Origin: an uncultured archaeon
GTDB taxonomy: Archaea > Asgardarchaeota > Lokiarchaeia > Sigyniarchaeales > SOKP01
DNA: 20,206 nucleotides
Direction: 5' to 3'
Assembly: GCA_964447495.1 (NCBI GenBank)
Contig: CAYUTF010000060.1
Coordinates: forward strand, 1 to 20,206
Made by a program: the position numbers and the translations under genes. Positions 738-17,918 of the stretch are shown in pieces. How positions within the stretch are numbered: position 1 is the stretch's first letter; each line of letters starts with the position of its first letter. The notes below the pieces were generated by a model. The model was not told the DNA's origin. It searched no databases and worked only from the letters and a program-made list of their open reading frames with translations.

Positions 738-1268
738 TCAATTACGCTTCCTTGAATCAATAATTCTTCTTGTTAATTCTGTAAATGCTTCATCAACGTT
801 TACACCAGTTTTTGCAGAAGTCTCGATATAGATCGAGCCTTCTTTCTCTGCAAATGATCTTGCTTCATACCTATCTATTGCTGGTTTATTATTTTCTATC
901 AAATCGGCTTTATTCCCAATTAGAACAAAAGGAATATTTTCACCAGCAAATTGCTGTATTTCTGTTAACCATTTCCTCACTTCGATATAAGTTTGTTCGC
1001 GTGTTAAATCAAAAACTAATAATGCTCCTGCTGCACCCTTATAGAAACTGGATCGGATAAATTCGAATCTCTGTTGACCACCTATATCCCAAATGGAGAG
1101 TGTTGCGATTTCACCCTGTCGGAATTCGACATCCTTAGTAAGAATATCTACGCCTACAGTTAGTCTATAATTTGCTGCGAATCGATTCTTAATGAATCTA
1201 TTTACTAAATCTTCCTTACCAACCGCAGCTGCGCCAATTAGCAACACTTTTAATTTAAAACTTGACAT
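738..1268 (-). CDS. Rab-like small GTPase (Ras superfamily) with atypical P-loop
   Basis: G1 GAAAVGKE, G2 YRLTVGVD, G3 WDIGGQ, G4 NKAD, G5 ETSAK; FYKGAAGALLVFD Rab-type segment; no C-terminal cysteine prenylation motif; SD-like GTGAGG just upstream. Confidence 0.95.
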   Translation of the reverse strand: MSSFKLKVLLIGAAAVGKEDLVNRFIKNRFAANYRLTVGVDILTKDVEFRQGEIATLSIWDIGGQQRFEFIRSSFYKGAAGALLVFDLTREQTYIEVRKWLTEIQQFAGENIPFVLIGNKADLIENNKPAIDRYEARSFAEKEGSIYIETSAKTGVNVDEAFTELTRRIIDSRKRN

Positions 1269-1515: not shown

Positions 1516-2100
1516 TTATTTTTTTGATGTTCTATTTAACCAATCTTCTTTAAAAAGCCGGTACTTACGAGAATCAACATATTCTCCATCAATATACATA
1601 GCTTTTTTCTGAATTCCTTCCAGAGCAAAACCATCTTTTTCTGCTACGGTCCAAGACCGGATATTAGGCTCAAAAACTCCAGCATAAATCTTGAAAAAGT
1701 TTAACTCCTTAAAGCCGTAATCGATTAATAGATGTGATGCTTCTGTACCTAAGTTCATATTCCAGTATTTCGGCTCTCCAATGCTCATATAAATGTTAGC
1801 GTTGCGATCAACCCAATCAATTCTTCCAAACCCGCAAGTTCCAATTGGGACTTGATCTTTTTTATACCATATTTCAAACCCCACATGACGTGACAATCCT
1901 TGTCGTGGTTCAAACCATTTTTTCATCTCTTCAGTAGTGTGTGGGATCATATTTCTGGCATAAAGCCTTGCTTTTGGGTTATTATTCCATTTAGCATATA
2001 AAGGTACATGATCTAGATTAGTTGGAGCGAGTGCTACATTCTCTCCCTCAATAAATGGAATATATACCAACTCTTTCTTTTTTTCTTTATTTTCGCTCAT
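1516..2100 (-). CDS. GNAT N-acetyltransferase, RimJ/RimL family
   Basis: YWNMNLGTEA acetyl-CoA binding motif, FKELNFFKIYA, NIRSWTVAEKDGF, YIDGEYVD. Start placed at ATG 2100 (MSENKE) by alignment with the two paralogs; 2112 is possible, 2172 overlaps the upstream gene. Confidence 0.9.
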   Translation of the reverse strand: MSENKEKKKELVYIPFIEGENVALAPTNLDHVPLYAKWNNNPKARLYARNMIPHTTEEMKKWFEPRQGLSRHVGFEIWYKKDQVPIGTCGFGRIDWVDRNANIYMSIGEPKYWNMNLGTEASHLLIDYGFKELNFFKIYAGVFEPNIRSWTVAEKDGFALEGIQKKAMYIDGEYVDSRKYRLFKEDWLNRTSKK

Positions 2101-2131
2101 GATTAATATCATATAATTTATTTTAGAGGAA

Positions 2132-2707
2132 TTATTTATAGTCAAATTTCTGTCGTAATTGGTTCCATTCATCCTTAAATATACTGTATTCGTATTCGTC
2201 TACGTATTTTCCTTTTACAAATGCATTTTTCTTCAACATTAACTCACGTTTCATACCTATCTTCTCACAAATTTTCCATGAACCGTAATTCATCTCATAC
2301 ATATTACCGGTTATTTTTTGCAAGTTTAATTCATTAAATCCATAATCCAGAATTAAGCAAGTTGCTTCAAATCCCAAATTTTGTCTCCAATATGCGGGAT
2401 CTCCAATAGATAAACCTATATTACCGACTTTATCAGCCCAACTAATAAAATTAAACCCTACATATCCAATGGGTTTCTTATCTGCATTATGCCAAACTTC
2501 AAGGCCAATTTCTCTAGGAATACGCCCTTGGCTCTCCTCAAACGCCTTTTTAAAATCTTCTGCTAATATAGGAAAGAGATTACGACCATATTTACGGACT
2601 TCAGGATTATTCTCCCATGAAGCATATAATTTAATATTATCCAAATTGAGGGCACATAAGGAAAGATTTTTTCCCTCTATAAAAGGATACAATTTTACAT
2701 CTGACAT
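2132..2707 (-). CDS. GNAT N-acetyltransferase, RimJ/RimL family
   Basis: YWRQNLGFEA, GFNELNLQKI, NYGSWKICEKIGM; start at 2707 (MSDVKL) preceded by SD GAGGT that overlaps the upstream TGA stop. Confidence 0.9.
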   Translation of the reverse strand: MSDVKLYPFIEGKNLSLCALNLDNIKLYASWENNPEVRKYGRNLFPILAEDFKKAFEESQGRIPREIGLEVWHNADKKPIGYVGFNFISWADKVGNIGLSIGDPAYWRQNLGFEATCLILDYGFNELNLQKITGNMYEMNYGSWKICEKIGMKRELMLKKNAFVKGKYVDEYEYSIFKDEWNQLRQKFDYK

Positions 2708-2717
2708 TTTTAATACC

Positions 2718-3284
2718 TCATTTCTCCATTCTTTCAAACCACTCTTTTTTAAATACCCTATATTTCAATGCATCATAATATGTACCATCAACATACATTT
2801 CTTCTTTTAATGTTGCTTCATGAATGAGTCCTAATTTCTCAAGTACCCGAATAGACTGCTTATTCGGAGTAAATACACCTGTATATAATTTGTGTAAATT
2901 CAAATCTTCAAAAGAATAGATGATTAATAATTTTAAGCTCTCAACAGCAAGTCCTTTACCCCAATATTCAGGTTCTCCAATATTCACGAAAAAATGTGCG
3001 TTTCTATTAAGCCAATTGATATCTGATAATCCAACTATCCCAATAGACTTCATATCTTTTTTATGATAAATCTCAAAATAAATACTTGTCTTGATTGAAT
3101 CTTCTGATTGTGGTTCAAGTATTTTTTTCAATTGACTAATGCTTTGAGGTAGAGGTGTTCGAGAGTAAAGTCTGCCCGAGGGTAAATTTATCCACTTAGC
3201 ATAAAGTTCTACATTTTCGACCGAAGGGGCCCATAATTCTACATTTTCTCCAGCAATAAATGTAAGACTAACTTTCTTTTCCAA
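2718..3284 (-). CDS. GNAT N-acetyltransferase, RimJ/RimL family
   Basis: YWGKGLAVE, LNLHKL, NKQSIRVLEKLG, YVDGTYYD; TTG start with upstream AGGTTGA. Confidence 0.92.
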   Translation of the reverse strand: MEKKVSLTFIAGENVELWAPSVENVELYAKWINLPSGRLYSRTPLPQSISQLKKILEPQSEDSIKTSIYFEIYHKKDMKSIGIVGLSDINWLNRNAHFFVNIGEPEYWGKGLAVESLKLLIIYSFEDLNLHKLYTGVFTPNKQSIRVLEKLGLIHEATLKEEMYVDGTYYDALKYRVFKKEWFERMEK

Positions 3285-6596: not shown

Positions 6597-7445
6597 CTAA
6601 ACTACTTTATTATCATCATTAGGTTCATTTGATTTTGAAGATTGTTTATCCTTTCCATCAGGGGTGTCTTTTGTTTGTTTGGAATCAGCTTCTATTTTAT
6701 CTGATTCTGTCTCCGATTCGAGTTCAGAGTCTGGCTCTGGCTCAGGTTCAGGGGGCTTAGGTCCCCTAGAGATAACAACTTTTGCATATCTAAGCACTTC
6801 TTTATCGAATTTCCAACCATCCTGAATTATTTCTAAAATAGTATTATTTGAAACATCATCTTTTTCTATAGACGTTAGAGCTTCTTGAGAGGAATAATTG
6901 AAAGGTTCATCAACTTTTACGTCCATAGGTTCTGCTTTATGACCTTTCAAAATATTCATGAATTGGTCATAAAACCCCTTTAACAGTTTCATGTTCTCCT
7001 TATCCTCGGAAAGAGCTTTTTTAAACGAATCATAGAGAGGTAAGAAGCTTTTTAAAACAGAAGCGGTATACTCTATCCGTAAAATTTGTCGGTTCTTATC
7101 CCAGCGTTTCTGAGCATTTTCAAATTCTGCCTGTAAGCGCATATATTTATTTTTCCAGTTTTCTGATTCTTCTTTTGCTTTCTTAAGATTTGCTTGAAGG
7201 GTTTTTAATTCTGTTTCTAATTTGCTCACTTTCTCGACTAAATACTCTTTTGAATAATATTCTAATTTTCCTGGCTCTTTGCCCTCGATTTGCTTTTGCT
7301 TTATTTCTGTTGATTCCTTTGGAATATCAATATCTTCTTTTACTTCTGAATTACCTTCTGTGTTTTCTTTCATGATTGATTCCTCACTTTCCACATCCTT
7401 TTGAGTTGCATGAGCTTCTTGTTCAGTATCTTTTTTCCGAGTCAT
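6597..7445 (-). CDS. grpE: Nucleotide exchange factor GrpE
   Basis: Coiled coil then YMRLQAEFENAQKR, FLPLYDSF, EPFNYSSQEAL, IQDGWKFDKEVLRYAKVVIS; adjacent to dnaK. Confidence 0.95.
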   Translation of the reverse strand: MTRKKDTEQEAHATQKDVESEESIMKENTEGNSEVKEDIDIPKESTEIKQKQIEGKEPGKLEYYSKEYLVEKVSKLETELKTLQANLKKAKEESENWKNKYMRLQAEFENAQKRWDKNRQILRIEYTASVLKSFLPLYDSFKKALSEDKENMKLLKGFYDQFMNILKGHKAEPMDVKVDEPFNYSSQEALTSIEKDDVSNNTILEIIQDGWKFDKEVLRYAKVVISRGPKPPEPEPEPDSELESETESDKIEADSKQTKDTPDGKDKQSSKSNEPNDDNKVV

Positions 7446-7616
7446 TGCTAATCCCTATTCCAAACCATAAAATCTTAATATGATATAATGATCTCTATAT
7501 CATAAAAATTCATAAAAATTTTAAATTTTTCTATATTATATAGTTCATAAGAATAAAACAATTATATCATAATTTAATAGTATAAACTAATATTGCAAAT
7601 AAAGTGAAATTGTAAA
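7446..7616. promoter_or_regulatory. Divergent grpE/dnaK promoter region with inverted repeats
   Basis: TATGATATA(7479-7487)-N8-TATATCATA(7496-7504); ATTATATCATA at 7561-7571 is the reverse complement of 7479-7489; central palindromes at 7514-7530 and 7531-7543. Confidence 0.6.
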
Positions 7617-9632
7617 ATGAGTGAAAATAAATCTGATGCGAAAAAAAGACGCGAACGCATTATTGGCATAGACCTGGGTACATCAAATAGTGCATGCGCC
7701 GTTTTGAGTGGTACGGGTCAGCCCGAGATTATTCCCGCTGCTGAGGGAAGAACATTGGGCGGTAAGGCTTTTCCATCATATGTCGCCTTTGATGAGAACG
7801 GGAGAAAAATTGTGGGCGAGCCAGCACGAAGACAAGCAGTAAGCAACCCCGATGGTACCGTAACCGCGATTAAACGTAAGATGGGCTTATCATATAAGGC
7901 AAAGGTGAAAGTAGGAAAAGAGTGGAAGGAATTTTCTCCAGAAGAGATTTCGGCTATGATTCTTACCAAGATCAAAAATGACGCTAGCGCATATCTTGGT
8001 GAGCAAGTTAAAAAAGCAGTAATTACTGTTCCCGCCTATTTTAACGACGCACAGCGCACCGCAACCAAAAACGCAGGTGAGATCGCGGGACTCGAGGTAG
8101 TACGAATGATTAATGAACCCACCGCAGCATGTTTAGCATATGGATTAGATAAGGATACCAAAAATAAGCTTTTGAAGATCTGTGTACTTGATTTAGGTGG
8201 TGGAACCTTCGATATTACGTTAATGGAATATGGAGAGGGTGTAGTTGAGGTTTTATCTACTGCTGGCGATACTCAGCTAGGTGGTACTGATATGGACAAT
8301 TTTATTATCGATTGGATAACAGAAGAGTTCAAGAAGAAAGAGGGAATTGATCTGAGAGGCGATTCAAAAGCAATGATACGTATCAAGGATGCAGGTGAGA
8401 AAGCAAAGATTGAATTGTCAACAACCATCTCAACTACAATCAATTTACCGTATATTTCCCAGAAAGAGGGAAATCCAGTTCATTTAGAGATGGAAATTAC
8501 ACGAGCTAAATTAGAATCACTAATCGAACCAGTCCTCAAGCGACTTGATCCAATTATGAGACGAGCAGTTTCAGATGCCAAATTATCGGTAAATGACATG
8601 GATAAGATTATTTTAGTTGGTGGACCGACAAGGATGCCTTCAGTTCAAAAAAGATTTAAAGATTACTTCGGAAAGGAGCCAGAACACTCAGTAGATCCTA
8701 TGGAATGTGTTGCGATTGGAGCAGCAATCCAAGGTGGAGTCATTGCTGGCGATGTAGAAGATTTGCTCTTATTAGATGTCACTCCTTTATCTTTAGGAGT
8801 AGAGACTCTTGGGGGCGTATTTACAAAATTAATTGAAAGAAATACCACCATTCCGACTGAGAAAAAGCAGACCTTTAGTACTGCAGCTGATAATCAACCC
8901 GCAGTAACCATTAACGTACTTCAAGGAGAGCGTGCTATGGCAAAAGACAATATCTCATTAGGAATGTTTCATCTCACGGGAATTCCGCCAGCACCTCGAG
9001 GAATACCCCAAATAGAAGTCAAATTCTCTATTGATGCCGATGGAATTGTCAACGTAAAAGCAAAAGATTTAGGCACTGGAAAAGAAACAGGTATTACAGT
9101 AACTGGCGCGAGAGGATTAACTCCTGAAGAAATTGAACAAAAAGTAAGAAATGCAGAACAATATGAAGAAGAAGATAAGAAAGTACGAGAATTAATTGAA
9201 GTAAAAAATAACGCAGATTCAATGATATATCAGACAAGGAAGTTAATGGAAGATAACAAAGAAAAGATTCAAGAAAACGAGAAGAAAGAAATTGAAGCTG
9301 CGATAAAGTCATTAGAAGAAGACATTAAAACGGATGATGTACAAAGGATTAAAATGGGAGTAGAGAATTTACAAAAATCTATGTATAGCTTTTCACAGAG
9401 AATCTATGCCTCACAAGCTCAAGACCAGGTATATCAGCAAGCTGCGGAACAAGCCCAACGTGCGGCAAGTGGAATGGGCGGTGTACCCCCAGGTGGTATG
9501 GGTGGTGTCCCTCCGGGAGGAGCAACAGAAGCAGGTCAAGGAAGTGGTGGCGCATCTTATAAGTCCGAAAAAGAAGAGAAAAAGGATAAGAAGAAAGTCG
9601 TAGACGTTGAATGGGACGAGGAAAATGATTAA
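7617..9632 (+). CDS. dnaK: Molecular chaperone DnaK (Hsp70)
   Basis: [65 protein letters not shown]; Gly/Pro-rich tail ending [11 protein letters not shown]. Confidence 0.99.
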
Positions 9633-9679
9633 TTTAATAATTTCTTTCTTATAATTTATTCTATTTTTTCATGTATTAC

Positions 9680-9689
9680 TTTTTTTTTT
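9680..9689 (+). terminator. Candidate archaeal oligo-T terminator after dnaK
   Basis: Run of 10 T about 50 nt after the stop, in a T-rich 278-nt gap before dnaJ. Confidence 0.4.
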
Positions 9690-9910
9690 ACGAAATAGGT
9701 TTTTTAATGATAGAATTCAGGTTCTATTAAGGAATTTATAGATTTAATTATGTTTTTGCAATATTTGTTTTTTCGTAGAGATTAAATTTATTTAATATAA
9801 TTTTATTTTGAAAAATGCCACTATTCACAAATCTAAAAAAATAAATTTTAGTGCAGATTTATTAAAATTGATAAATAATCTATAACGATGTTTTTAAGTG
9901 ATAAAGAATC

Positions 9911-11047
9911 ATGAGTTCTAGTAAGAAGAGAGATTACTACGAGGTACTTGGGGTAAGCAAGGATGCAAGTGAAAATGATATCAAGCTAGCATATCGTAAA
10001 TTGGCTCGTAAGTATCATCCCGATGTAAACAAAACAGATCCTAAAGCGAAGGAAAAATTTATAGAAGTTCAAGAAGCTTATGAAGTACTAAGTGATGCTA
10101 ATAAAAGAAGAAACTATGATCAATTTGGATTTAGTGGTGTAGATATTGACATGAGTGATTACTTTCGAGGCGGAATTCCGGGTATCGATGAGCTACTGAA
10201 ATCAATCTTTGGCGGTTTTTCCCATTTTGGCGGGTTTGATGATTTTGGATTTGGGAGTTTTGGATCAAGAGCAAGAGGAAGGTCGGTTCCTCGTAGAGAA
10301 GTGGGACAAGACTTGGAAGAACATATAACCATAAGTTTTGAAGAAGCGATGTTTGGAGTAAAAAAAGATATCCCCATCCAGAGATACACTCCCTGTGATG
10401 CTTGTGAAGGTACTGGAGCAGAAGACCCTTCGAGTGTGAAAACATGTCCTCAATGTGAAGGTTCAGGAAGAATACGAAAAATGACTCAGTCTGGATTTGG
10501 AACAATAATACGCGAATCAGAGTGTTATAGCTGTAATGGAACAGGGAAAGTTATTGAGAAAAAATGCAAAGTATGTAATGGCTCAAAAGTACTACCAGAG
10601 AAGAAAAAGATACATGTAAGTATTCCCCCTGGTGTGGAAAATGGCGTTCACTTAAAAGTGCAAGGTGCGGGTCATGTACCCTCAGTAAATGCAATACCTG
10701 GAGATTTATATGTAGGAATTCGTATTGAAGAAAATGAAAATTTTATAAGACGGGGTAATGACCTTTATACACGTGCAGATATTGATATTGTGACCGCTAT
10801 TATAGGAGGTAAAATTAAAGTTCCTACATTGGACTATAAAAATGAAACTATAAAGGAAAAAGAATTAGCAATTCCTCCCGGAACGCAATATGGTACTGAA
10901 TTCCGCATTAAGAATAGAGGCGTTTCTTATTTAAGGGGAAAAGGAAAAGGAGATCAATATGTTATCATTAATATTGAAATCCCTAAAAAACTTTCTGAGG
11001 AACAAAAGAAAGTATTAATGAAGTTCAAAGAGTTAAGCGATATTTAA
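9911..11047 (+). CDS. dnaJ: Molecular chaperone DnaJ (class A)
   Basis: J-domain with HPD, G/F-rich region, four CxxCxGxG-type repeats ([32 protein letters not shown]) and C-terminal domains. Confidence 0.99.
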
Positions 11048-11153
11048 AGGTTTATTCTTGTTCTTCTTCATCTTCATAAACTTATCGAGTTATTATGTAA
11101 TAATTCAAAAGGAAAAAATATAAACTCCCTTTTACCATATTTTAATCATAATA

Positions 11154-11624
11154 ATGACCAATTTGAACCCTGAAAAATTACATGTTGTTTACAAGGATTT
11201 AGTAGATGATTCTAAGGATTTAATCCCTCGTAAATATACATTAACTCATTCTGATTCAACTGGAGATCTTTTCCTAACCATAGGAGCCGAATATGATTAT
11301 GAGCAAATATCAAAATTATACACACGATTTATGAGAGATGAAGTATTAGCTGAATGGCGAAAGAAGGATAAGCATTATGAGATCCATCTCTATTTGCATG
11401 TTAGTGGGCGATTTTGTTTTGGATGGGCAGGATTAAGAGATAGAATCTTTCGACACCATTTACCACTTGTTTTACAAGCAATAAAATATGGCGATAAGAT
11501 TTTATTCGATTATATGCCAGAGCTTGAAGATTCTTACATTTTAATTCATTTCAAGTCTCATAGGAAAAAATATAACTTAATAGAAAATTTTGGGATAATT
11601 AAAGAGATCTCATTATTTTCTTAA
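11154..11624 (+). CDS. Staygreen (SGR) family protein
   Basis: NPEKLHV, PRKYTLTHSDSTGDLFLTIG, RDEVLAEW, RIFRHHLPLVLQAIKYGD, HFKS motifs. Confidence 0.92.
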   Translation: MTNLNPEKLHVVYKDLVDDSKDLIPRKYTLTHSDSTGDLFLTIGAEYDYEQISKLYTRFMRDEVLAEWRKKDKHYEIHLYLHVSGRFCFGWAGLRDRIFRHHLPLVLQAIKYGDKILFDYMPELEDSYILIHFKSHRKKYNLIENFGIIKEISLFS

Positions 11625-11658
11625 AGAACTCAATCTAGCTAAAAATATCTTCTGCAAA

Positions 11659-13674
11659 TTACTTAATTATATGTGGTTGGGTTTTCTTTAATGGATGTGG
11701 TTGGGTTTCCTTTAATGGATGTGGTTGGGTTTTCTTAAACTGATTACTTTTTGAGGGATCTTTCAAATTTTGGATTGCATTTTCGATGGTTTCAAGTTTA
11801 ATAGAATATTTCTCGAACAGCTCAGTAAAACTATTAACATCGATGTCATTATTTTCATAAAGAATTTGCAATTGCTTTAATGTTCTTCCCACTCCTGCCT
11901 TATTATTTCTTAATTCTTCGATCCTATTAAAATTAATCAGTACTTCTGACATTATATTTTTATAACGTAAATAGGCATCGAAATTAAGATCTTTTTGGTC
12001 ATATTTGGTTAAAAAATTGGTAGTTCTTGGAATAAAGGGCGCTAGGTTTTCCGGAATTATTATCAAGGGCTCGGGATCTTGAATTTCCATTGCTTCTGCT
12101 TCACTTATTTCCTCAACGTCATTTTCCATAATATTTTCATTTACTACTGACAAATTATAGTTTAATTTCTGTTTTGCAGCTTCTGATATATTAGGATACT
12201 TTTTGAGTATAAATTCCCATAAATCCTCTGCTTTAAAGTAGTAATAATTTGCTTTTTTCTTCAGTTTTTCTATAATATCTTCATTTTCATTGGCATCTGG
12301 TGATTTCGATAAAAATGTGGCCTTCAAATGACAAGCTTTTCCAATATCATAATTATATTGTGCTTTTAGTTGATAATGTTTTGTTTGACCATAAGTTCTT
12401 AAAAATGCTAACCTTTTGGTTAATGCACTCAGTCCTGCGGATAATTTTGCTGCAATTGAATAGTTTTCTCTCTGAATCTCGCTTAATGTAGCGAGATTTT
12501 GAGCAAGAATACGAGATTGTTCGGAATTTAATTCAAGAATTTCAACAGACAATGCTGATCCCTTATCTTGTTGTCGAGTGCAAGCAGCACTAAAGTAAGC
12601 AGCAGTTTTATACATTTTACTACATTCAACCATTGCAACTATTGCATTTTCCATTAAACCATCCACTTCAAATTTTCTGGATAGATAAGAATATGCTTGA
12701 GCAGAGAGCCATAGTGCTCGTGCGCACTCAAAAATTAGATCCCATATTTGAATATCTCTTCTTTCGATTGGATCGTAAAATGTTGATGAAATATCTAATT
12801 CCTTTAAAAGTCTAATTTGACTTTGGGTTTTATAATTAATATTTAAGATTTTTATATATTCTATGATATAATTAAGTTCAGAAAAAGCGAAATCTTCCTT
12901 TCGCTGCACGTAAGTTTCTAAATGCTTCATTTTGTAATGTAGAAAACGAATCCTCTGCATTATTTCTTCTGTGAAAAATGGTTTGCCTTTGTATTGCTTA
13001 ATTATTTGGTCAGTTTTTATTGGCTTTTTTTCAACTTTTTGTTTTAATTTTTTATTATCAGGAGAGGTTTTCTTTTTTATCTGGGAAATAACATCTGAAT
13101 TAAGCTGTGTTTTATTTTCTATAGGTTTAAATGGAACAAAATCAGAGATTTGTGTTTTTTTTGGTAATTCTTTAACTTTTGGGACTTTAACTTCATTCTT
13201 TGTAACTTTGGGGACCTTAGTTTCATTCTTTGGGATGGAAACAATAAGATTTTCTTCTTTCTCTTTTATCCTCATACTTTCCAGATATTTTTGTGCTATT
13301 TCGATATATCTTTTTGCATTAGATATCCCAATGCCCTTAGTTCGTGATAAATCTTCAATATTGGAACTTGCCAATTTTTCTATAGATTCGAGAGGGACTT
13401 TTGCTATATTCTTAATGTTTTCTGATTCTAACTCTTTTGAAGGAATACGTTCTTTTATTATTTTATTAATGGCTTCTTTTGTTTCTATGTTTTTTAAATG
13501 TCTGTTTGCAATCAATATATACTTTTTTGCATCTTGTACACTAATTCCTTCTATTTTTGATATTCTTTCTACGCTACTATTTGCTAATTCCTCTATTGAA
13601 TTAATATTATGCTGTTTCAATTTCTCTACAGTTGATTTTCCAATCCCTTTAACCATGTCCGCTATCGAAATCAT
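11659..13674 (-). CDS. HhH-domain protein with putative Bro1-like domain and steadiness-box-like C-terminus (paralog 1)
   Basis: N-terminal VKGIG..IEGIS HhH pair plus a second partial copy (TKGIG); Lys-rich linker; roughly 400-aa helical region colinear with 14542..16722. HhH call is solid, Bro1/SB calls are by-eye inference. Confidence 0.8.
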   Translation of the reverse strand: MISIADMVKGIGKSTVEKLKQHNINSIEELANSSVERISKIEGISVQDAKKYILIANRHLKNIETKEAINKIIKERIPSKELESENIKNIAKVPLESIEKLASSNIEDLSRTKGIGISNAKRYIEIAQKYLESMRIKEKEENLIVSIPKNETKVPKVTKNEVKVPKVKELPKKTQISDFVPFKPIENKTQLNSDVISQIKKKTSPDNKKLKQKVEKKPIKTDQIIKQYKGKPFFTEEIMQRIRFLHYKMKHLETYVQRKEDFAFSELNYIIEYIKILNINYKTQSQIRLLKELDISSTFYDPIERRDIQIWDLIFECARALWLSAQAYSYLSRKFEVDGLMENAIVAMVECSKMYKTAAYFSAACTRQQDKGSALSVEILELNSEQSRILAQNLATLSEIQRENYSIAAKLSAGLSALTKRLAFLRTYGQTKHYQLKAQYNYDIGKACHLKATFLSKSPDANENEDIIEKLKKKANYYYFKAEDLWEFILKKYPNISEAAKQKLNYNLSVVNENIMENDVEEISEAEAMEIQDPEPLIIIPENLAPFIPRTTNFLTKYDQKDLNFDAYLRYKNIMSEVLINFNRIEELRNNKAGVGRTLKQLQILYENNDIDVNSFTELFEKYSIKLETIENAIQNLKDPSKSNQFKKTQPHPLKETQPHPLKKTQPHIIK
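11671..11736. repeat. 24-bp tandem repeat x2.75 encoding K(K/E)TQPHPL at the protein C-terminus
   Basis: ATGTGGTTGGGTTT(T/C)CTTTAATGG at 11671 and 11695, partial at 11719; one mismatch. Confidence 0.95.
13173..13232. repeat. 30-bp tandem duplication in the linker (KNETKVPKV / KNEVKVPKV)
   Basis: Two copies, 13173-13202 and 13203-13232, 26/30 identical. Confidence 0.85.
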
Positions 13675-13695
13675 ATTAATCAGATAATAAAATAG

Positions 13696-13737
13696 ATTTC
13701 AATATATATACTTATTCAATTCTTTTTTTTAAACTTA
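13696..13737 (-). promoter_or_regulatory. Promoter of paralog 1: TATA box plus conserved upstream motif
   Basis: Minus strand TAAGTTTAAAAAAAA-N14-TATATA-N2-GAAAT-N21-ATG; same layout upstream of paralog 2. Confidence 0.7.
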
Positions 13738-13900
13738 ATCAAATCACTCTTGATTTTGTTGGATAAATTGAAGTATCTTTAAGCAGGATTTTTTGTACAC
13801 AAGATTTTAACACAAATTAGAAAAATGCTTGAATTATGATTTCCAATTACATAAAGATTATTAAATTTAAAAAAATAATATTTTACGTTTTATACCAATT

Positions 13901-14443
13901 TTAATATTGTATAGATTTATTTAAATTACGATTCTCAATTAAAGTGGGATGTTCTTTTTCTAAAATTCTTTTACTTCTAGTGAGAGTATCTTTAATAGCT
14001 TTAATTTCTGCCCTAGTTTTTAAATTTATGTTTTTTTTCAAACATTCAAGGATTTTTTTTTCCTGATATCCATACCCATAAAGTTTTAAAAATTCTTGGA
14101 TAGCTTTTTTACTGTAGAATATATAACGTTTATCTAAATATACAATGAGCCATTTTTTATGTCTTTGACGTTTTGAGAGCTTATACATATAGTTTTGAAC
14201 TATAGGTATTGATCGACTAATTTTCCTAGAAACCATGAAATCTTCAATTTTATCATATTTATTCATTAATTTAATTAGCCTTTTCCTAAAGGAAAGAGAG
14301 GGAATATAAGAAACAATAAACCCAAATATAAAAGTTAATGTTATAAGTATTGCAAATACTCTATTATAAACAAAAATTGCTAATATTACTAAAATTAACA
14401 AAAAGAACCAAGATTTACTAAATATTGTACCAATTTTACTCAT
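13901..14443 (-). CDS. Membrane-anchored basic protein, two N-terminal TM helices and putative tandem winged-helix domains
   Basis: Hydrophobic residues about 10-48; then a three-helix plus beta-hairpin pattern (KRLIKLMNKY/EDFMVSRKI/SIPIVQNYMYKLS/WLIVYL-RYIFY) and a second three-helix unit; SD-like GAGG upstream. Confidence 0.7.
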   Translation of the reverse strand: MSKIGTIFSKSWFFLLILVILAIFVYNRVFAILITLTFIFGFIVSYIPSLSFRKRLIKLMNKYDKIEDFMVSRKISRSIPIVQNYMYKLSKRQRHKKWLIVYLDKRYIFYSKKAIQEFLKLYGYGYQEKKILECLKKNINLKTRAEIKAIKDTLTRSKRILEKEHPTLIENRNLNKSIQY

Positions 14444-14541
14444 ACCTTCTCCCTCAACAATTTATTAGGTAATTAACAAAAAGATGAAATTATTTATATA
14501 TTTTACATATATGCTTATAAATTTAATTTAAATTCATTAAT

Positions 14542-16722
14542 TCAAGATTTATTATACTCCTCGATGGCACTATTTATATCATTAATCTTTATTCTATATT
14601 TTTCTAAAAGTTCCATATATTTATCAATATCAATGTCGTTATTATCATATAAATATTCTAATTCATTAATAAGACGTCCTAAAGCCGCTTTTCTATTTAA
14701 AAGTCCAGACTTCTTATTTAGAACTATTTTTTCTTCAAACTGCATACTTCTAAATCTTTTCAATCTTTTTACACTATGATCTCTATAAGAATACCTTCGT
14801 AAAAAACAAACAACTTTAGGTACGTGCTCCGATAAATTTTCTGGCACTATAATAATTGGATCAGGATCTTGAATATTTTTTACATTTTTATAATCTAAAA
14901 TCTCTACATCGTTTTCCATTATATTTTCATTAACAACTTTTAGGTTTTTTTCTATGTCGCTTTTTTCTTCTTTTGAAAGGTCTTTAAAATTTTGAATAAT
15001 ATTTTCCCATAATCCCTCAGCAATAGAATAATAATAATTAGCTTTTAGTAATTTTTGATTGCCTTTTTCCATAGCTTGTTTATTTTTCTCTTTTGGGAAT
15101 AATGAAGCTATAATTGCTCTGGCTTTTAAATGACATGATTTCCCCAAATCATAAGTAAATTGTGCTTTTATTTTCATTTTCGTTTTTTCATCATGTGGCT
15201 TCAAATAGTATAATCTTTTTGACAATGCGCTTAAACCAGCATACAATTTAGATGCTAAATAAAAGTTATTATTTCTTTCTTCCTTTAGAGCAGCAACACT
15301 CTGAGCTATAATTCTAGTTTCTTCAGATTTAAATTCTAAGTATTCTGGATTTAAACTAGATCCAATATATTTTTGATTAACCGCAGCTCCGCTAAAATAT
15401 GATGCTGCTTTATACGATTTGCTACATTCAACCATTGTTACTACAGCATGCTCCCAATTTCCTTCACTCTCATATTTTTCTGACAAATTAGCACAGAATA
15501 ATGCCATAACCCATAGAGTACGAGCGCATTCAAACATTATATCATAAATGTTTATATCTACTCTTTCAACAGGGTCATAATAAGATAAAGTTAAATCTAG
15601 TTCTCTTAGGATTAAATTTTGATTTTTTGTTTTATAGTTCAAGTTAAGTAATGTTATATATTCATGAAATAGCTCAATATCTTTTATAGAATAAGAACTT
15701 TCTCCTCTAAAAACTTCTTTCTCTATTTTTTTAATTTTAAAATGTAAAAATCGAATCCTTCGGACAGTCTCCACTTCAAAAAAAACTTTAGAATAATCAA
15801 TAGAAATTTCTTTTTCTTTAATTTCTGAAGCTGTATTACTATTTTCGGGTTCTTTACTTACTTGCGATGCAGTAGCTTTTACACGTTGCTTTTTTTCCTT
15901 TCTTTTCACATGTCGAGTTTTTTTAGGAATAACAGTAGTTGTCTCTTGATAAGAAGATACTTTCTCCATTGATAGTAAATTTTTCTTTCGTTTTTCAACA
16001 ATCTTTTTCCCTTTTGATTTATTTTTTGATTTTCCGAGTTCTGAAAGTTCTTTCTTGGCAACAGCAATTTTTCCTTCTTTTAATGAAATATACGCTTTAA
16101 TAGGTTGTTCAGATGAGTATTCCTCCTTCATTGATTTTGGAATATCTAATATCTTTTCTGAAGTAGATGGATTTGAAGTATCTAAAAACTCTCTTAAAAT
16201 AAGATGATTTGAGTTTTTCTCATATTCTTGAACATATTCAAAATTTTCTTCAGAAGGCGTTAGAGATTTAGAAATTCTTTCTCCCTGGGAGGCATTTTTT
16301 TCTTTAGATTTGTTTTTTTCTATTTCATTTCCTTGAGCAATATCATCATAATCATTGGGAGATATTTGATTTGGAACATTCAATGTTTTTCGTGAAAAAT
16401 ATGATTGAGAGTTGTTCAAATGAGAGTTGTTTAAATTATCTTCGAATTCTCGAATTGGATGGTTTAATATTGAATTAATCGGAATTGGGTTATTACTTCT
16501 TAAAGTGATGTTTTTCTCAATCTTCCTATCAATCATACTTTCAAGAAAGTTTTGGGCAAAAGAGATATATCTATTCGCCATTGAATTCCCAATACCGTGA
16601 ATTTTTAATAAATCTTCAACGCTCGATGACGCAAGTTTGGTTATTGAGTCAATTCCGTGCCCTTTCATCCTTTCTGCTGTCTTTTTTCCAATTCCCTTAA
16701 CCAGTTGTAAATCTAATGTCAT
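14542..16722 (-). CDS. HhH-domain protein with putative Bro1-like domain and steadiness-box-like C-terminus (paralog 2)
   Basis: VKGIGKKTAERM...IHGIG HhH pair; long charged low-complexity linker; conserved blocks RIRFLH, YDPxER, FECAR, MVECSK, AGLSAL, CHLKA, KANYYY, VVNENIMENDVE, IQDP, PENL, LYxNNDID shared with paralog 1. Confidence 0.8.
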   Translation of the reverse strand: MTLDLQLVKGIGKKTAERMKGHGIDSITKLASSSVEDLLKIHGIGNSMANRYISFAQNFLESMIDRKIEKNITLRSNNPIPINSILNHPIREFEDNLNNSHLNNSQSYFSRKTLNVPNQISPNDYDDIAQGNEIEKNKSKEKNASQGERISKSLTPSEENFEYVQEYEKNSNHLILREFLDTSNPSTSEKILDIPKSMKEEYSSEQPIKAYISLKEGKIAVAKKELSELGKSKNKSKGKKIVEKRKKNLLSMEKVSSYQETTTVIPKKTRHVKRKEKKQRVKATASQVSKEPENSNTASEIKEKEISIDYSKVFFEVETVRRIRFLHFKIKKIEKEVFRGESSYSIKDIELFHEYITLLNLNYKTKNQNLILRELDLTLSYYDPVERVDINIYDIMFECARTLWVMALFCANLSEKYESEGNWEHAVVTMVECSKSYKAASYFSGAAVNQKYIGSSLNPEYLEFKSEETRIIAQSVAALKEERNNNFYLASKLYAGLSALSKRLYYLKPHDEKTKMKIKAQFTYDLGKSCHLKARAIIASLFPKEKNKQAMEKGNQKLLKANYYYSIAEGLWENIIQNFKDLSKEEKSDIEKNLKVVNENIMENDVEILDYKNVKNIQDPDPIIIVPENLSEHVPKVVCFLRRYSYRDHSVKRLKRFRSMQFEEKIVLNKKSGLLNRKAALGRLINELEYLYDNNDIDIDKYMELLEKYRIKINDINSAIEEYNKS

Positions 16723-16743
16723 ATAAAGAAAAAATCACATTCA

Positions 16744-16785
16744 ATTTCGGTATATAATATTATGCTACTTTTTTTTTTAAACTTA
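16744..16785 (-). promoter_or_regulatory. Promoter of paralog 2: TATA box plus conserved upstream motif
   Basis: Minus strand TAAGTTTAAAAAAAA-N14-TATATA-N2-GAAAT-N21-ATG, identical spacing to 13696..13737. Confidence 0.7.
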
Positions 16786-16887
16786 TTTATATTAATTTTG
16801 GAATATAAATTCGGTTTCTTAATTTAGGTAAAAAAGAAAATCATAAATTAGATTAATTACCATGCAATAATTTGATTATATAATTAA

Positions 16888-17138: not shown

Positions 17139-17918
17139 ATGGATATAGATACTGAAGATGAAATAGTTCTGAGCCGATTTTCTAAGATTATTGCTGGGAT
17201 TCTGCTAGGGTTTTTTGCATCTTTAATTATAGTCCTTGCGCTAGGAGTTGGTGGATTTCAAGTGTTTTCCCACAGTGGTGTTTCACCCATAAATATGGCG
17301 ACACCAATAAACACTGCCGGAAACACTACGCCCGAGTTACCTCCCATAGAGGGCGATGTCTGGGAATTCTTTCCCGAGCCAGGAGCTGAAGGATGTTATG
17401 ATGTATGTCATGATACTGAAGCTGGTAGAATGAATATTTATTATGATATTCCTGATGTATTCCCTCTCTGCATAGACGAGGCTTATATTGATGCAAATTT
17501 TGGATTAAAAGTAGGGTCTTTCGGTGGTTATCATCCTGAAGATCTTGGTTACAATATGATGTATATAAATCAACCAAAGACCGGATTAGGTGGTGCTGTT
17601 AAAATTACATGGACAGAAGTTGGCATTGTTCAAGGGCCATTAGGTTGCGATACTGTCCTGTATGAAGCTTCATTCGATTTAGTTGATGGACCTATACAAA
17701 TTGATAGTAATCATTTACCAGAACCCGTTTGTGTTTCTGGCTGTGACATTCCATTCATGCTTGATTGTCCTGCTTCAGAAAACCTAGGTAAATGGGTAAT
17801 GGTCACGATCATAACCAGCTGGGAAGGCTGTCATGATTTAGATCAAAAATTCCAGTTAATTCTGGCACATTTGAGTGAAATATGTCCCCAGAATCCCCAA
17901 CTCCCAATGAATATATAA
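17139..17918 (+). CDS. Hypothetical exported or membrane-anchored acidic Cys-rich protein
   Basis: N-terminal hydrophobic segment IIAGILLGFFASLIIVLALGVGG, Pro/Thr linker, nine Cys, acidic composition, higher GC than its flanks. Confidence 0.75.
   Translation: MDIDTEDEIVLSRFSKIIAGILLGFFASLIIVLALGVGGFQVFSHSGVSPINMATPINTAGNTTPELPPIEGDVWEFFPEPGAEGCYDVCHDTEAGRMNIYYDIPDVFPLCIDEAYIDANFGLKVGSFGGYHPEDLGYNMMYINQPKTGLGGAVKITWTEVGIVQGPLGCDTVLYEASFDLVDGPIQIDSNHLPEPVCVSGCDIPFMLDCPASENLGKWVMVTIITSWEGCHDLDQKFQLILAHLSEICPQNPQLPMNI

What the first reader, a model, noticed from the sequence alone, without database searches (positions are those of the whole stretch)
12040..12980. Bro1-like signature in the conserved core of both paralogs
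By eye, four ordered blocks match my recollection of the HD-PTP/ALIX Bro1 domain: FYDPIERRDIQIWDLIFECARALWLSAQAYSYL vs WTEIFSGKSVAHEDIKYEQACILYNLGALHSML (no gap needed); AMVECSKMYKTAAYF vs GMKVSCTHFQCAAGAF; LSVEILELNSEQSRILAQ vs MSRQILTLNVNLMLGQAQ; IAAKLSAGL vs LVARISAQV / IIAKLANQA. The same blocks are conserved in paralog 2 (about 14830-15790). The terminal KDNDFIY motif is only loosely echoed (NIMENDVE). The reference sequences are from memory.
Basis: partly seen in the sequence, partly recalled or inferred. Interest (0 to 1): 0.85.

Follow-up and report, generated by a model that had tools for sequence, protein, structure and literature searches.

The report
Bro1-like ESCRT adaptor domain in Lokiarchaeia
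Two neighbouring genes of a Lokiarchaeia-type archaeon encode proteins whose conserved core is predicted to fold like the eukaryotic Bro1 domain, the module that recruits the ESCRT membrane-cutting machinery, here joined to a DNA-binding-type head and an ESCRT-I-like tail.

Summary
All quoted blocks lie in two paralogous genes, 11659-13674(-) and 14542-16722(-), which are 44% identical over 444 residues.

The Bro1 reading holds at the level of fold.
- AlphaFold2 models of the window core and of a 22-25% identical relative were made (pLDDT 86.5 and 86.0).
- In both, every PDB match with Foldseek E<=0.001 is a Bro1 domain: yeast Bro1, ALIX, HD-PTP, BROX. TM is 0.42-0.55 and the alignments run almost full length.
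- Generic repeats and Sec17 come 10-100 times weaker.
- The order of elements matches the published Bro1 plan.

Sequence support is soft. The window proteins do not hit Pfam BRO1. One distant member reaches 33.3 bits against a cut-off of 35.1.

New here:
- The C-terminal helical hairpin resembles the steadiness-box region of an Asgard ESCRT-I-like protein (hhalign E 3e-7, with controls).
- The N-termini carry HhH_5 domains.
- A third, core-only paralog lies elsewhere in the genome.

The family was found in 67 of 68 genomes of one Asgard family.

Most likely it is an ESCRT adaptor. Binding partners are untested.

The parts
11659..13674 (-). Gene of paralog 1 (P0001, 671 aa): two HhH stretches, Lys-rich linker, Bro1-like domain, SB-like hairpin, short repeat tail
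   Evidence: ORF list and translation. 696 database relatives at E<=0.001 among 7420 candidates scored.
13522..13656 (-). First helix-hairpin-helix module of P0001 (aa 7-51)
   Evidence: Pfam HHH_5 PF14520, E 2.1e-14, 54.2 bits against a cut-off of 27, 2 stretches, best 7-51.
13282..13398 (-). Second HhH-like stretch of P0001 (about aa 93-131)
   Evidence: Pfam reports 2 HHH_5 stretches but prints only the best. I placed this one by eye, on the second 'GIG' hairpin in the translation.
13003..13257 (-). Lys-rich low-complexity linker of P0001 (aa 140-224)
   Evidence: Translation. It does not align between the paralogs.
12019..12969 (-). Bro1-like domain of P0001 (aa 236-552; core 12-328): three-helix bundle, beta-hairpin, seven long helices (six of them the three TPR-like hairpins a4-a9), one short helix, conserved Pro-rich extended segment
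   Evidence: AF2 model, pLDDT 86.5. Foldseek PDB matches with E<=0.001 are all Bro1 domains. ESM Atlas leads to PF03097 clusters at 0.86 and 0.85.
11761..11931 (-). C-terminal helical hairpin of P0001 (aa 582-638; core 358-414), steadiness-box-like
   Evidence: Model helices 358-383 and 389-414. hhalign of the family's hairpin profile against the C-termini of 30 orthologs of an Asgard Zn-ribbon...SB protein gives Prob 93.2, E 3e-7, with controls far lower.
11662..11754 (-). C-terminal tail of P0001 with three copies of a TQPHPLK-like repeat
   Evidence: Translation. It is absent from P0002.
14542..16722 (-). Gene of paralog 2 (P0002, 726 aa): one HhH module, long low-complexity linker, Bro1-like domain, SB-like hairpin
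   Evidence: 44% identical to P0001 over 444 aa.
16555..16713 (-). HhH module of P0002 (aa 4-56)
   Evidence: Pfam HHH_5, E 2.4e-11, 44.4 bits; HHH PF00633 at 26.6 bits against a cut-off of 24.
14809..15774 (-). Bro1-like domain of P0002 (aa 317-638)
   Evidence: Placed by alignment to P0001, not modelled on its own. ESM Atlas leads for this paralog: PF03097 clusters at 0.86, 0.85 and 0.85.
14551..14721 (-). SB-like C-terminal hairpin of P0002 (aa 668-724)
   Evidence: Placed by alignment to P0001.

Best explanation
The conserved core of both paralogs, about 320 residues, is a divergent Bro1-type domain. It has an N-terminal three-helix bundle, a beta-hairpin, a solenoid of TPR-like helical hairpins, and a conserved proline-rich extended segment. 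[quoted passage not shown]

The proteins belong to a family found in nearly all genomes of one Lokiarchaeia-type family. The basal form is core-only, about 413 aa, and this genome holds a copy on another contig. The two window genes are derived forms that gained N-terminal helix-hairpin-helix modules and a Lys-rich linker.

Proposed mechanism:
- The concave face of the Bro1-like domain (helices a5-a7 plus the Pro-rich segment, the family's most conserved parts) binds an amphipathic helix of a partner. The partner is most likely an ESCRT-III tail, as in ALIX, HD-PTP and BROX.
- The C-terminal hairpin docks the protein onto ESCRT-I-like steadiness-box partners.
- In the HhH-bearing paralogs, the head and basic linker tie this adaptor to nucleic acid.

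Shown here: the genes, their paralogy, the HhH domains, the predicted Bro1-like fold, the profile similarity of the hairpin to an Asgard SB-bearing protein, the phyletic spread, and the presence of ESCRT-III, Vps4 and an SB-like protein in the same genome.

Inferred: homology with eukaryotic Bro1, every binding partner, and the DNA link.
For: **Fold**
- AF2 without templates gave pLDDT 86.5, pTM 0.75 for the window core and 86.0, 0.75 for the distant member P0157.
- For each model, all PDB matches with Foldseek E<=0.001 (21 each; 18 and 17 rows printed) are Bro1 domains of yeast Bro1, ALIX, HD-PTP and BROX. Probability is 1.00. The alignments span 319-380 columns against 355-389-residue Bro1-domain chains (full-length ALIX 2oev: 496 and 393 columns). 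The next hits are designed repeats at 4.3e-3 and 4.3e-2.

**Order of elements**
- The model has H12-33, H40-53, H62-69, strands 74-77 and 82-85, then seven long helices and a high-confidence extended segment at 307-325.
- This matches the published plan: an a1-3 bundle, a b1-b2 hairpin, three TPR-like hairpins a4-9, and an extended loop (PMC3230590, passages read).

**Language model**
- ESM Atlas leads for both paralogs point to eukaryotic PF03097 clusters, at 0.86 and 0.85 with 179-183 shared features.

**Sequence chain**
- Window core to P0157: E 1.3e-17, nearly full length.
- P0157 to Pfam BRO1: E 3.2e-8, 33.3 bits, profile positions 33-208.

**Conservation**
- It peaks on a4-a7 (0.67-0.71) and on the Pro-rich segment (0.70), against 0.59 overall.
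- Helices H5-H7 and a Pro-rich C-terminal region are the elements that hold CHMP4 peptides in HD-PTP (PMC5501724, passages read).

**ESCRT link independent of the Bro1 fold**
- The C-terminal hairpin profile matches the C-termini of 30 orthologs of a 715-aa Zn-ribbon...SB-like protein: hhalign Prob 93.2, E 3e-7, score 39.8.
- Controls: reversed template 11.7; column shuffles 17.7 or less in 99 of 100; ESCRT-III alignment 15.5.
- That 715-aa protein sits beside an ESCRT-III gene and carries the genome's best Vps23_core hit, which is itself sub-threshold.

**Same genome**
- It encodes two Snf7-family proteins above the Pfam cut-off. A 405-aa ORF that I read by eye as Vps4 lies beside one of them.
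Against: **Sequence**
- No Pfam BRO1 hit for either window protein at E<=10, nor for the core-only paralog.
- None in the genome at E<=1.
- BRO1 is not among the 25 families matched by most of the 58 aligned members. P0157 is the only member I saw match.
- Family and subfamily profiles find no Bro1 chain in the PDB sequences at E<=10.
- 0 of 301 Asgard genomes reach the BRO1 cut-off.

**Sub-threshold BRO1 scores are not specific**
- A TPR protein of another Asgard genome scores 32.4 bits yet is unrelated to this family.
- The BRO1 matches of P0157 (aa 9-182 to profile 33-208) and of a related 520-aa protein (aa 153-261 to profile 189-287), mapped onto each other through, disagree by about 60-70 profile positions. 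That is about one helical hairpin, so at least one is register-shifted.

**Fold match is only moderate**
- TM scores are moderate (0.39-0.55) and rmsd is 7-12 A.

**ESM Atlas**
- Scores are under 0.9, which the tool rates as leads only. Recognition for P0002 is 2279, under the tool's 2300 mark.

**Steadiness box**
- The link to eukaryotic Vps23 itself is not significant: PDB E 0.5-1.5, Pfam Vps23_core E 0.087.

**Context and partners**
- No ESCRT gene lies in the window or beside the third paralog.
- The two ESCRT-III tails end in MIM-like helices without the Leu/Trp anchors described for CHMP4.
Confidence: 0.6

Rival explanations
1. The core is a generic TPR-like helical solenoid scaffold with no evolutionary or functional tie to Bro1 or ESCRT. 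It resembles Bro1 only because Bro1 domains have a TPR-like centre. AlphaFold2 may also have drawn an ambiguous helical protein towards a fold it knows.
For: - The window proteins miss Pfam BRO1.
- An unrelated TPR protein reaches 32.4 bits on BRO1.
- Two sub-threshold BRO1 matches disagree in register by about one hairpin.
- TM is only 0.39-0.55.
- Family members give weak TPR and MIT hits.
- There is no ESCRT neighbour.
Against: - Ordinary TPR proteins, Sec17 and designed repeats score 10-100 times weaker in E-value, with TM 0.41 or less, in both searches.
- The match covers nearly whole Bro1 domains, including the non-TPR bundle, the beta-hairpin and the extended segment.
- Neither window protein has a Pfam TPR hit at E<=10.
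- The attached SB-like hairpin links the family to an ESCRT-adjacent protein by another route.
Confidence: 0.2
2. The proteins act mainly on DNA, in repair, recombination or chromatin organisation, through their HhH modules. The helical core is merely an oligomerisation or partner-binding scaffold for DNA transactions, unrelated to membrane remodelling.
For: - HHH_5 is the only family above the Pfam cut-off in P0001. In P0002, HHH_5 and HHH are the only two.
- 40 of 58 aligned members carry HHH_5.
- The nearest PDB sequence matches are the RadA/Rad51 N-terminal and NusA C-terminal HhH domains, all weak.
- The linkers are Lys-rich.
Against: - The conserved, nearly universal part of the family is the core. 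In a quick, midpoint-rooted tree the core-only form branches at the base, and the HhH-bearing forms make one derived clade.
- NusA-type HhH repeats can also bind proteins (recalled).
- Nothing in the window is a repair gene.
Confidence: 0.12
3. The ORFs are not real genes, or the block similarity is a chance effect of AT-rich composition.
For: The window has low G+C, 0.24-0.41, and the linkers are low-complexity.
Against: - 696 relatives at E<=0.001, many 68-87% identical.
- 67 of 68 genomes of the family hold a copy.
- The models are confident.
- Near-identical short contigs occur in RNA libraries of three runs. This does not prove transcription.
Confidence: 0.01

Closest known systems
Eukaryotic Bro1 domains (yeast Bro1p, ALIX, HD-PTP, BROX; Pfam PF03097)
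   Same: - The predicted fold and the order of elements: bundle, beta-hairpin, TPR-like hairpins, extended Pro-rich segment.
- Bro1 domains are the exclusive top structural matches.
- Conservation is concentrated on a5-a7 and the Pro-rich segment, the elements that bind CHMP4 in HD-PTP.
   Different: - 11-15% identity in the structural alignments.
- No Pfam BRO1 hit for the window proteins.
- No V domain and no proline-rich region. Instead there is an SB-like hairpin at the C-terminus and, in the window paralogs, HhH modules at the N-terminus.
- The host's ESCRT-III tails lack the CHMP4 Leu/Trp anchor.
Asgard ESCRT-I-like proteins with a steadiness box, e.g. the Zn-ribbon/PH/coiled-coil/SB family described by Makarova et al. 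2024 (PMC10936438; section 6 and passages read)
   Same: The C-terminal helical hairpin shows profile similarity (hhalign E 3e-7) to the C-terminus of the 715-aa Zn-ribbon protein that lies beside ESCRT-III in this genome. The paper notes Asgard multidomain proteins that combine SB with TPR repeats.
   Different: - The rest of the protein is unrelated.
- I equate the 715-aa protein with that published family by its architecture as read from the sequence, and by a sub-threshold Vps23_core hit (18.4 bits). This is not a test.
[quoted passage not shown]
Asgard 'Bro1 homologues' announced by Eme et al. 2023 (PMC10307638; two passages read)
   Same: The paper claims that Asgard archaea have homologues of the ESCRT-III regulator Bro1.
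   Different: The main text gives no accession, lineage or architecture. I cannot tell whether this family is what they found.
CdvA of Thermoproteota (Crenarchaeota)
   Same: As a working analogy only: CdvA combines DNA or membrane contact with recruitment of ESCRT-III (recalled, not from a call). Makarova et al. report HHpred similarity between the SB hairpin and CdvA. The P0001 C-terminal piece gives a weak CdvA coiled-coil hit, E 0.025.
   Different: The folds and the partner interface are different, and the Pfam hit is not significant.

Membership tests
Bro1 domain (PF03097) | Sequence match to the Pfam BRO1 profile at or above the gathering score (35.1 bits) | tested here: not met
   No hit at E<=10 for P0001, P0002 or the core-only paralog. 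None at E<=1 in the genome. The distant member P0157 scores 33.3 bits. 0 of 301 Asgard genomes are over the cut-off.
Bro1 domain (PF03097) | Fold: a1-3 helical bundle, two-stranded hairpin, three TPR-like hairpins a4-9 in a curved solenoid (PMC3230590) | tested here: met
   The AF2 models show this order of elements. All Foldseek PDB matches with E<=0.001 are Bro1 domains, with near full-length alignments. This rests on predicted, not solved, structures, and TM is only 0.39-0.55.
Bro1 domain (PF03097) | Extended proline-rich segment after the last helix that runs along the concave face | tested here: inconclusive
   A conserved extended segment exists (core 307-328; P312, P317, E318, N319 and P325 invariant or nearly so; pLDDT above 90). 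Where it lies on the domain could not be seen, because no coordinates are given out.
Bro1 domain (PF03097) | Exposed hydrophobic Surface 1 on H5-H7 that binds the CHMP4 C-terminal helix | not testable with these tools
   No residue-level structural alignment was available. Only an indirect pointer exists: conservation peaks on a4-a7.
Bro1 domain (PF03097) | Physical binding to an ESCRT-III subunit | not testable with these tools
Needs a binding experiment.
ESCRT-I steadiness box (Pfam Vps23_core PF09454) | Match to the Vps23_core profile at or above 26.8 bits | tested here: not met
   Pieces of the window proteins give no hit at E<=10. The P0157 piece gives E 0.087, 13.3 bits. The genome search at E<=1 lists no place on the window's contig.
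ESCRT-I steadiness box (Pfam Vps23_core PF09454) | Helical hairpin with profile similarity to a recognised SB-bearing protein | tested here: met
   The hairpin is H358-383 and H389-414. hhalign against 30 C-termini of the ESCRT-III-adjacent Zn-ribbon protein gives Prob 93.2, E 3e-7, and the controls stay at 17.7 or less apart from one 6-column artefact. That protein's own SB status rests on a sub-threshold Pfam hit and on the literature.
Helix-hairpin-helix domain HHH_5 (PF14520) | Pfam match above the cut-off (27 bits) | tested here: met
   P0001 54.2 bits, P0002 44.4 bits. 40 of 58 aligned members match.
TPR / alpha-SNAP (rival filing) | Better profile or structural match to TPR or SNAP proteins than to Bro1 | tested here: not met
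   Sec17 chains score E 0.06-0.24 with TM 0.21 or less. TPR proteins (OGT, LGN, IFIT5, Pex5) score E 0.1 or weaker. Neither window protein has a Pfam TPR hit.

The most novel reading that the evidence does not exclude
Lokiarchaeia carry a true, ancient homologue of the eukaryotic Bro1/ALIX adaptor. Its original form is a Bro1 domain joined directly to an ESCRT-I steadiness-box hairpin, so one protein bridges ESCRT-I and ESCRT-III. In the HhH-bearing paralogs of this window, that bridge is anchored to DNA. It would then couple chromosome position or DNA-containing cargo to ESCRT-mediated membrane scission. This would be an archaeal counterpart of what CdvA does in Thermoproteota and of what chromatin-linked ESCRT adaptors do in eukaryotes.
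Probability: 0.15. Interest if true: 0.85.

Novelty: new variant of a known kind. Interest (0 to 1): 0.64.

Why it matters
Bro1-family adaptors (ALIX, HD-PTP, BROX, Bro1p) bring ESCRT-III to the place where a membrane must be cut. Whether they predate eukaryotes is unsettled in print:
- One survey states that Bro1/Alix orthologs are not identifiable in Asgard archaea (PMC10936438).
- Another announces Asgard Bro1 homologues in a single sentence (PMC10307638).

This finding offers a concrete protein family that would make the question testable at the bench. The family is near-universal within one Lokiarchaeia-type family. It has a confident Bro1-like predicted fold, an ESCRT-I-type hairpin and, in some paralogs, DNA-binding-type modules.

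If the binding partners are confirmed, the ESCRT adaptor layer would move back before eukaryogenesis. It would also show an architecture (HhH, Bro1-like, SB) that eukaryotes do not have.

Tried and rejected
**Searches that found no Bro1**
- phmmer and hmmsearch of P0001, of the family profile A2, of P0157 and of the three-member subfamily A3 against PDB sequences found no Bro1 chain at E<=10.
- A profile of six C-terminal pieces (A6) against PDB sequences listed yeast Vps23 constructs only at E 0.5-1.5, among coiled-coil noise. That is not significant.
- hhalign of A4 against the single 715-aa protein picked the same hairpin, but at E 0.084. Only the profile-profile version was significant.

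**Other Asgard candidates**
- The 410-aa TPR protein of G160 (BRO1 32.4 bits) is unrelated to the family. It serves as a warning about sub-threshold BRO1 hits.
- The 520-aa (f18) and 375-aa (f29) proteins are relatives by hhalign, E 6.7e-10 and 1e-10. The BRO1 hit of the first (17.5 bits) is in a different register from that of P0157, so I do not count it as independent support.

**Other negative or unfinished steps**
- The 'longer' search for fused forms above 1175 aa found none. The tool rates that as weak evidence.
- Complex prediction of the core (A2) with residues 125-208 of the Vps4-adjacent ESCRT-III (A5) returned 'no answer', score 0.00.
- Read laying: most of the stretch has no cover in the three RNA-library runs. 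That says nothing.
- The tree is the quick version, because the careful search did not finish. It is midpoint-rooted. My labels 'HhH_fused' and 'other_Nterm' came from a crude pattern and are unreliable, so I use only the position of the core-only rows and the clade of N-extended rows. Two of the 58 rows, with fewer than 330 core residues, were left out.
- In one search, 2 of 58 rows with under 80% coverage were dropped.
This call repeats it with that field filled in.

- Supplements of PMC10307638 and PMC10936438, which may list the Asgard Bro1 candidates and the SB/TPR architectures, could not be seen.
- Figures are not held, so I could not check whether Fig. 6B of PMC10936438 already shows this family.

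**Literature searches for prior description**
- 'Asgard'+'Bro1'
- 'Bro1'+'Lokiarchae'
- 'steadiness box'+'Asgard'+'TPR'

None of the listed papers describes an HhH/Bro1-like/SB protein in the passages I read.
Full report
**What is there**

The window has low G+C, 0.24-0.41. Two long minus-strand ORFs lie close together: 11659-13674 (P0001, 671 aa) and 14542-16722 (P0002, 726 aa). They are paralogs. BLASTP gives 44% identity over 444 residues (E 7e-121), plus a separate match of the first ~60 residues.

In P0001 they fall at 12112-12780, and in P0002 at 14902-15582.

Pfam finds helix-hairpin-helix domains at the N-termini: HHH_5 at 54.2 and 44.4 bits, against a cut-off of 27. It finds nothing else above threshold. 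In particular there is no BRO1 hit at E<=10.

Between the HhH part and the conserved core lie Lys-rich, low-complexity linkers. These do not align between the paralogs.

**Organism and neighbourhood**

Database relatives carry source names such as Lokiarchaeota and Promethearchaeota MAG proteins, annotated 'helix-hairpin-helix domain-containing protein' or 'hypothetical protein'.

The neighbours are:
- GrpE, DnaK, DnaJ
- a Staygreen-family protein
- an LRR protein
- a flavodoxin/Zn-ribbon protein
- Pirin
- three GNAT acetyltransferases
- a Ras-family GTPase
- a NosD/beta-helix protein
- two ORFs without a family

None is an ESCRT gene.

The assembly holding the window is rated 98.4% complete. 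It has a third paralog on another contig (L002:1495-2736, 413 aa) that consists of the core alone, without HhH. Its neighbours are an ATP-grasp protein and membrane proteins.

**The family**

The core (P0001 aa 225-640) has 696 relatives at E<=0.001 in the word-indexed search. The 120 listed are 68-100% identical.

In the exhaustive search of 50%-identity representatives, 53 clusters match at E<=0.001. 46 of them match at E<=1e-10 and 27 at E<=1e-30. Three are distant, core-only proteins of about 400 aa, 25% identical:
- P0151, E 3.9e-24
- P0157, E 1.3e-17
- P0160, E 6.6e-13

All three align over nearly the full length.

Among 301 genomes sampled from the phylum, 72 have a match at E<=0.001. 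That includes 67 of 68 genomes of the window's own family, 3 of 5 in family f18, and 1 of 11 in f29. No match was found with this query in the other sampled families. Most genomes hold a frame of roughly 410-440 aa, and a subset also holds longer frames of 500-730 aa.

The f18 protein (520 aa) and the f29 protein (375 aa) are relatives by profile comparison: hhalign Prob 96.6, E 6.7e-10 over 295 columns, and Prob 97.0, E 1e-10 over 138 columns.

A quick, midpoint-rooted tree puts the three distant proteins outside. It puts this genome's core-only paralog and P0127 at the base. All N-terminally extended proteins fall in one clade (SH-aLRT 100). This suggests, but does not prove, that the core-only form is ancestral and that the HhH fusion arose once and was then duplicated.

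No form longer than 1175 aa was found, which is weak evidence.

**Is the core Bro1-like? Structure**

AlphaFold2 was run without templates on a 58-row alignment. For the window core it gave mean pLDDT 86.5 and pTM 0.75. Only residues 1-5 and 333-355 fell below 50.

The model has, in order:
- three helices (12-33, 40-53, 62-69)
- a two-stranded hairpin (74-77, 82-85)
- seven long helices (89-113, 117-140, 153-177, 181-201, 206-232, 241-268, 274-294)
- a short helix
- a non-helical but confident segment, about 307-325
- a disordered stretch
- a final helical hairpin (358-383, 389-414)

The BROX structure paper describes Bro1 domains in these terms (PMC3230590, passages read):
- three TPR-like hairpins (a4-9) in a right-handed solenoid
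- flanked by a two-stranded hairpin and a helical bundle (a1-3)
- with an extended loop traversing the concave face

The order of elements is the same.

Foldseek against the PDB gives 21 matches with E<=0.001, and all are Bro1 domains. The 18 printed rows are 1zb1 yeast Bro1 (7.3e-6), then HD-PTP, ALIX and BROX entries. The ranks left out are further chains of listed entries. Probability is 1.00. Alignments span 332-380 columns against chains of 355-389 residues, and TM normalised to the target is 0.45-0.55. Full-length ALIX 2oev is the exception, at 496 columns and TMt 0.28. The next match is a designed helical repeat at 4.3e-3. After that come sNASP and Sec17, at 0.03-0.2 with TM of 0.41 or less.

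A second model, of the distant member P0157, used a 43-row alignment and reached pLDDT 86.0. It gives the same result. All 21 matches with E<=0.001 (17 rows printed) are Bro1 domains, from 2.2e-5. The next match is at 4.3e-2.

**Is the core Bro1-like? Sequence**

Here the support is thin, and I report it as such.
- Pfam BRO1 does not match P0001, P0002 or the core-only paralog at E<=10.
- It does not match the genome in six frames at E<=1.
- BRO1 is not among the 25 families that most of the 58 aligned members match.
- Only P0157 scores: 33.3 bits, E 3.2e-8, residues 9-182 on profile positions 33-208, just under the 35.1-bit cut-off. The database also carries a precomputed PF03097 label for it.
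- Profiles of the family or of the distant trio find no Bro1 chain among PDB sequences at E<=10.
- 0 of 301 Asgard genomes reach the BRO1 cut-off, and 8 have weak matches.

Two cautions follow.

First, one of those weak matches is a 410-aa TPR protein with 32.4 bits on BRO1 and real TPR_2 hits. It is unrelated to this family (hhalign Prob 0.1). So near-threshold BRO1 scores can come from ordinary TPR proteins.

Second, the 520-aa relative has its own weak BRO1 hit: 17.5 bits, residues 153-261 on profile 189-287. Carried through the alignment, it disagrees with P0157's register by about 60-70 profile positions, roughly one helical hairpin. At least one of the two is therefore shifted.

The protein language-model search gives leads in the same direction for both paralogs. 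Eukaryotic PF03097 clusters score 0.86 and 0.85, with 179-183 of 256 shared features, and palC-type clusters score 0.83. The family's own cluster is auto-named 'putative BRO1 domain-containing protein'.

**Where the conservation lies**

With position-based weights on 56 of the 58 rows, mean conservation is as follows:

| Element | Mean conservation |
|---|---|
| a4 | 0.67 |
| a5 | 0.71 |
| a6 | 0.68 |
| a7 | 0.71 |
| Pro-rich extended segment | 0.70 |
| a8-a10 | 0.52-0.57 |
| Overall | 0.59 |

Columns invariant in all 58 rows are F137, L156, E161, R164, Q168, G190, L191, R197 and W262. P312, P317, E318, N319 and P325 are invariant or nearly so.

On a6, the conserved residues 156, 157, 160, 161, 164, 167, 168, 171 and 175 follow an i/i+3/i+4 rhythm. 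They therefore line one face of the helix, and they include charged residues. This points to a conserved interaction face. That is an inference.

[quoted passage not shown] The parallel is suggestive.

**A second tie to ESCRT: the C-terminal hairpin**

The trio profile's third-best PDB sequence match was the ESCRT-I core fragment of yeast Vps23, at E 0.6, which is not significant. That led me to look at the hairpin.

Pfam Vps23_core gives only E 0.087 on the P0157 piece, and nothing on the window pieces. In this genome the best Vps23_core match is itself sub-threshold: 18.4 bits, E 0.0077. It lies at the C-terminus of a 715-aa protein with N-terminal Cys-pair motifs. That protein is encoded next to the second ESCRT-III gene. 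Its layout fits the Zn-ribbon/PH/coiled-coil/SB family that Makarova et al. regard as a likely Asgard ESCRT-I component (PMC10936438, section 6 read). I equate the two by architecture, not by a test.

I collected the C-termini of 30 orthologs and compared their profile with the profile of 42 family hairpins. hhalign gives Prob 93.2, E 3e-7, score 39.8 over 68 columns.

Controls:
- Reversed template: 11.7.
- 100 column shuffles: median 9.8, and 17.7 or less in 99. One 6-column end artefact scored 132.
- ESCRT-III alignment: 15.5.

The same paper reports HHpred similarity between SB hairpins and CdvA. The P0001 piece gives a weak CdvA coiled-coil hit, E 0.025.

I conclude that the hairpin is steadiness-box-like with moderate confidence. 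The direct link to eukaryotic Vps23 is not significant.

**ESCRT in the same genome**

Two Snf7-family proteins pass the Pfam cut-off, at 63 and 42.8 bits. One lies head-to-head with a 405-aa ORF that I read by eye as Vps4, with an MIT-like N-terminus and AAA motifs; it was not scanned. Both ESCRT-III tails end in acidic, MIM-like helices and lack the Leu/Trp anchors described for CHMP4. If the Bro1-like domain binds an ESCRT-III tail, the details must therefore differ from ALIX.

**Expression hint**

Near-identical DNA is held by several salt-marsh metagenome runs, and run X2 was laid with pieces at 99% or more.

Contigs from three metatranscriptome libraries match P0001:
- 13271-13421, 13521-13671 and 13270-13500, with 1-2 differences each
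- 12317-12474, with 2 differences

One contig matches P0002's core at about 94%, so it comes from a relative. The tool warns that DNA can be present in such libraries, so this is a weak hint of transcription at most.

**Reading**

The best-supported reading is a divergent Bro1-type adaptor domain, followed by an ESCRT-I-type hairpin. In the two window paralogs it is preceded by HhH modules and a basic linker.

My estimates:
- about 0.8 that the fold is Bro1-like
- about 0.6 that this reflects homology and an ESCRT-linked role
- about 0.3 that the HhH forms tie that role to DNA

The main rival is a generic TPR-like scaffold (0.2). It explains the weak sequence signals. It does not explain the exclusive, full-length Bro1 matches, the non-TPR elements, or the SB-like hairpin.

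**Prior knowledge and novelty**

Bro1 domains are textbook in eukaryotes. For Asgard archaea, one paper says that Bro1/Alix orthologs are not identifiable. Another states in one sentence that Bro1 homologues were found. The supplements that might name them are closed.

My three literature searches turned up no description of an HhH/Bro1-like/SB architecture in the passages I read. I rate the finding as a new variant of a known kind, with the caveat that the family may already sit in a supplementary table.

Noticed in passing
window 11154-11624 (+): A 156-aa protein matches the Staygreen family (PF12638, 167 bits, E 2.7e-49). From recall, that family is known from plant chlorophyll breakdown (Mg-dechelatase) and from some bacteria. 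Finding it in a Lokiarchaeia-type genome, next to DnaJ, is odd.
   Followed up: no
window 6597-11047: A GrpE(-)/DnaK(+)/DnaJ(+) cluster sits where G+C rises to 0.33-0.41, against 0.24-0.32 in much of the rest. This fits a bacterial-type Hsp70 system acquired by an archaeon (recalled idea, not tested).
   Followed up: no
window 738-1268 (-): A Ras-family small GTPase (PF00071, 167.6 bits), a typical Asgard 'eukaryotic signature' gene.
   Followed up: no
window 1516-3284 (-): Three GNAT acetyltransferase genes in tandem, slightly overlapping (Acetyltransf_3, 63-74 bits).
   Followed up: no
window 11662-11754 (-): The C-terminal tail of P0001 holds three copies of a TQPHPLK-like peptide repeat. 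P0002 lacks it.
   Followed up: no
window 13901-14443 (-) and 17139-17918 (+): Two ORFs, of 180 and 259 aa, flank paralog 2 and match no Pfam family. The 180-aa ORF lies between the two paralogs.
   Followed up: partly
L052:851-2998 (+) (G000 contig C106): A 715-aa protein with N-terminal Cys-pair (Zn-ribbon-like) motifs, a long Asn/Pro/Gln-rich stretch and an SB-like C-terminus. It lies next to the second ESCRT-III gene. It has no Pfam hit at E<=0.01.
   Followed up: partly
L016:856-1980 (+) (genome G292, family f29): A 375-aa relative of the family's C-terminal half, including the DPxP...PE segment (hhalign E 1e-10). It ends in a weak RING/zinc-ribbon-like motif (E 0.008-0.05), which could hint at a ubiquitin link.
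   Followed up: partly
L004:1456-2685 (-) (genome G160): A 410-aa TPR protein scores 32.4 bits on Pfam BRO1 as well as passing TPR_2. It is unrelated to the family studied. This is a caution for anyone calling Asgard 'Bro1 homologues' from sub-threshold Pfam hits.
   Followed up: yes
window 11100-16800: Near-identical DNA occurs in several salt-marsh metagenome runs (X1-X8 hold 0.28-1.00 of the sampled words). X2 was laid and 9 of its 15 pieces are at least 99% alike. X1 may be the source sample.
   Followed up: partly
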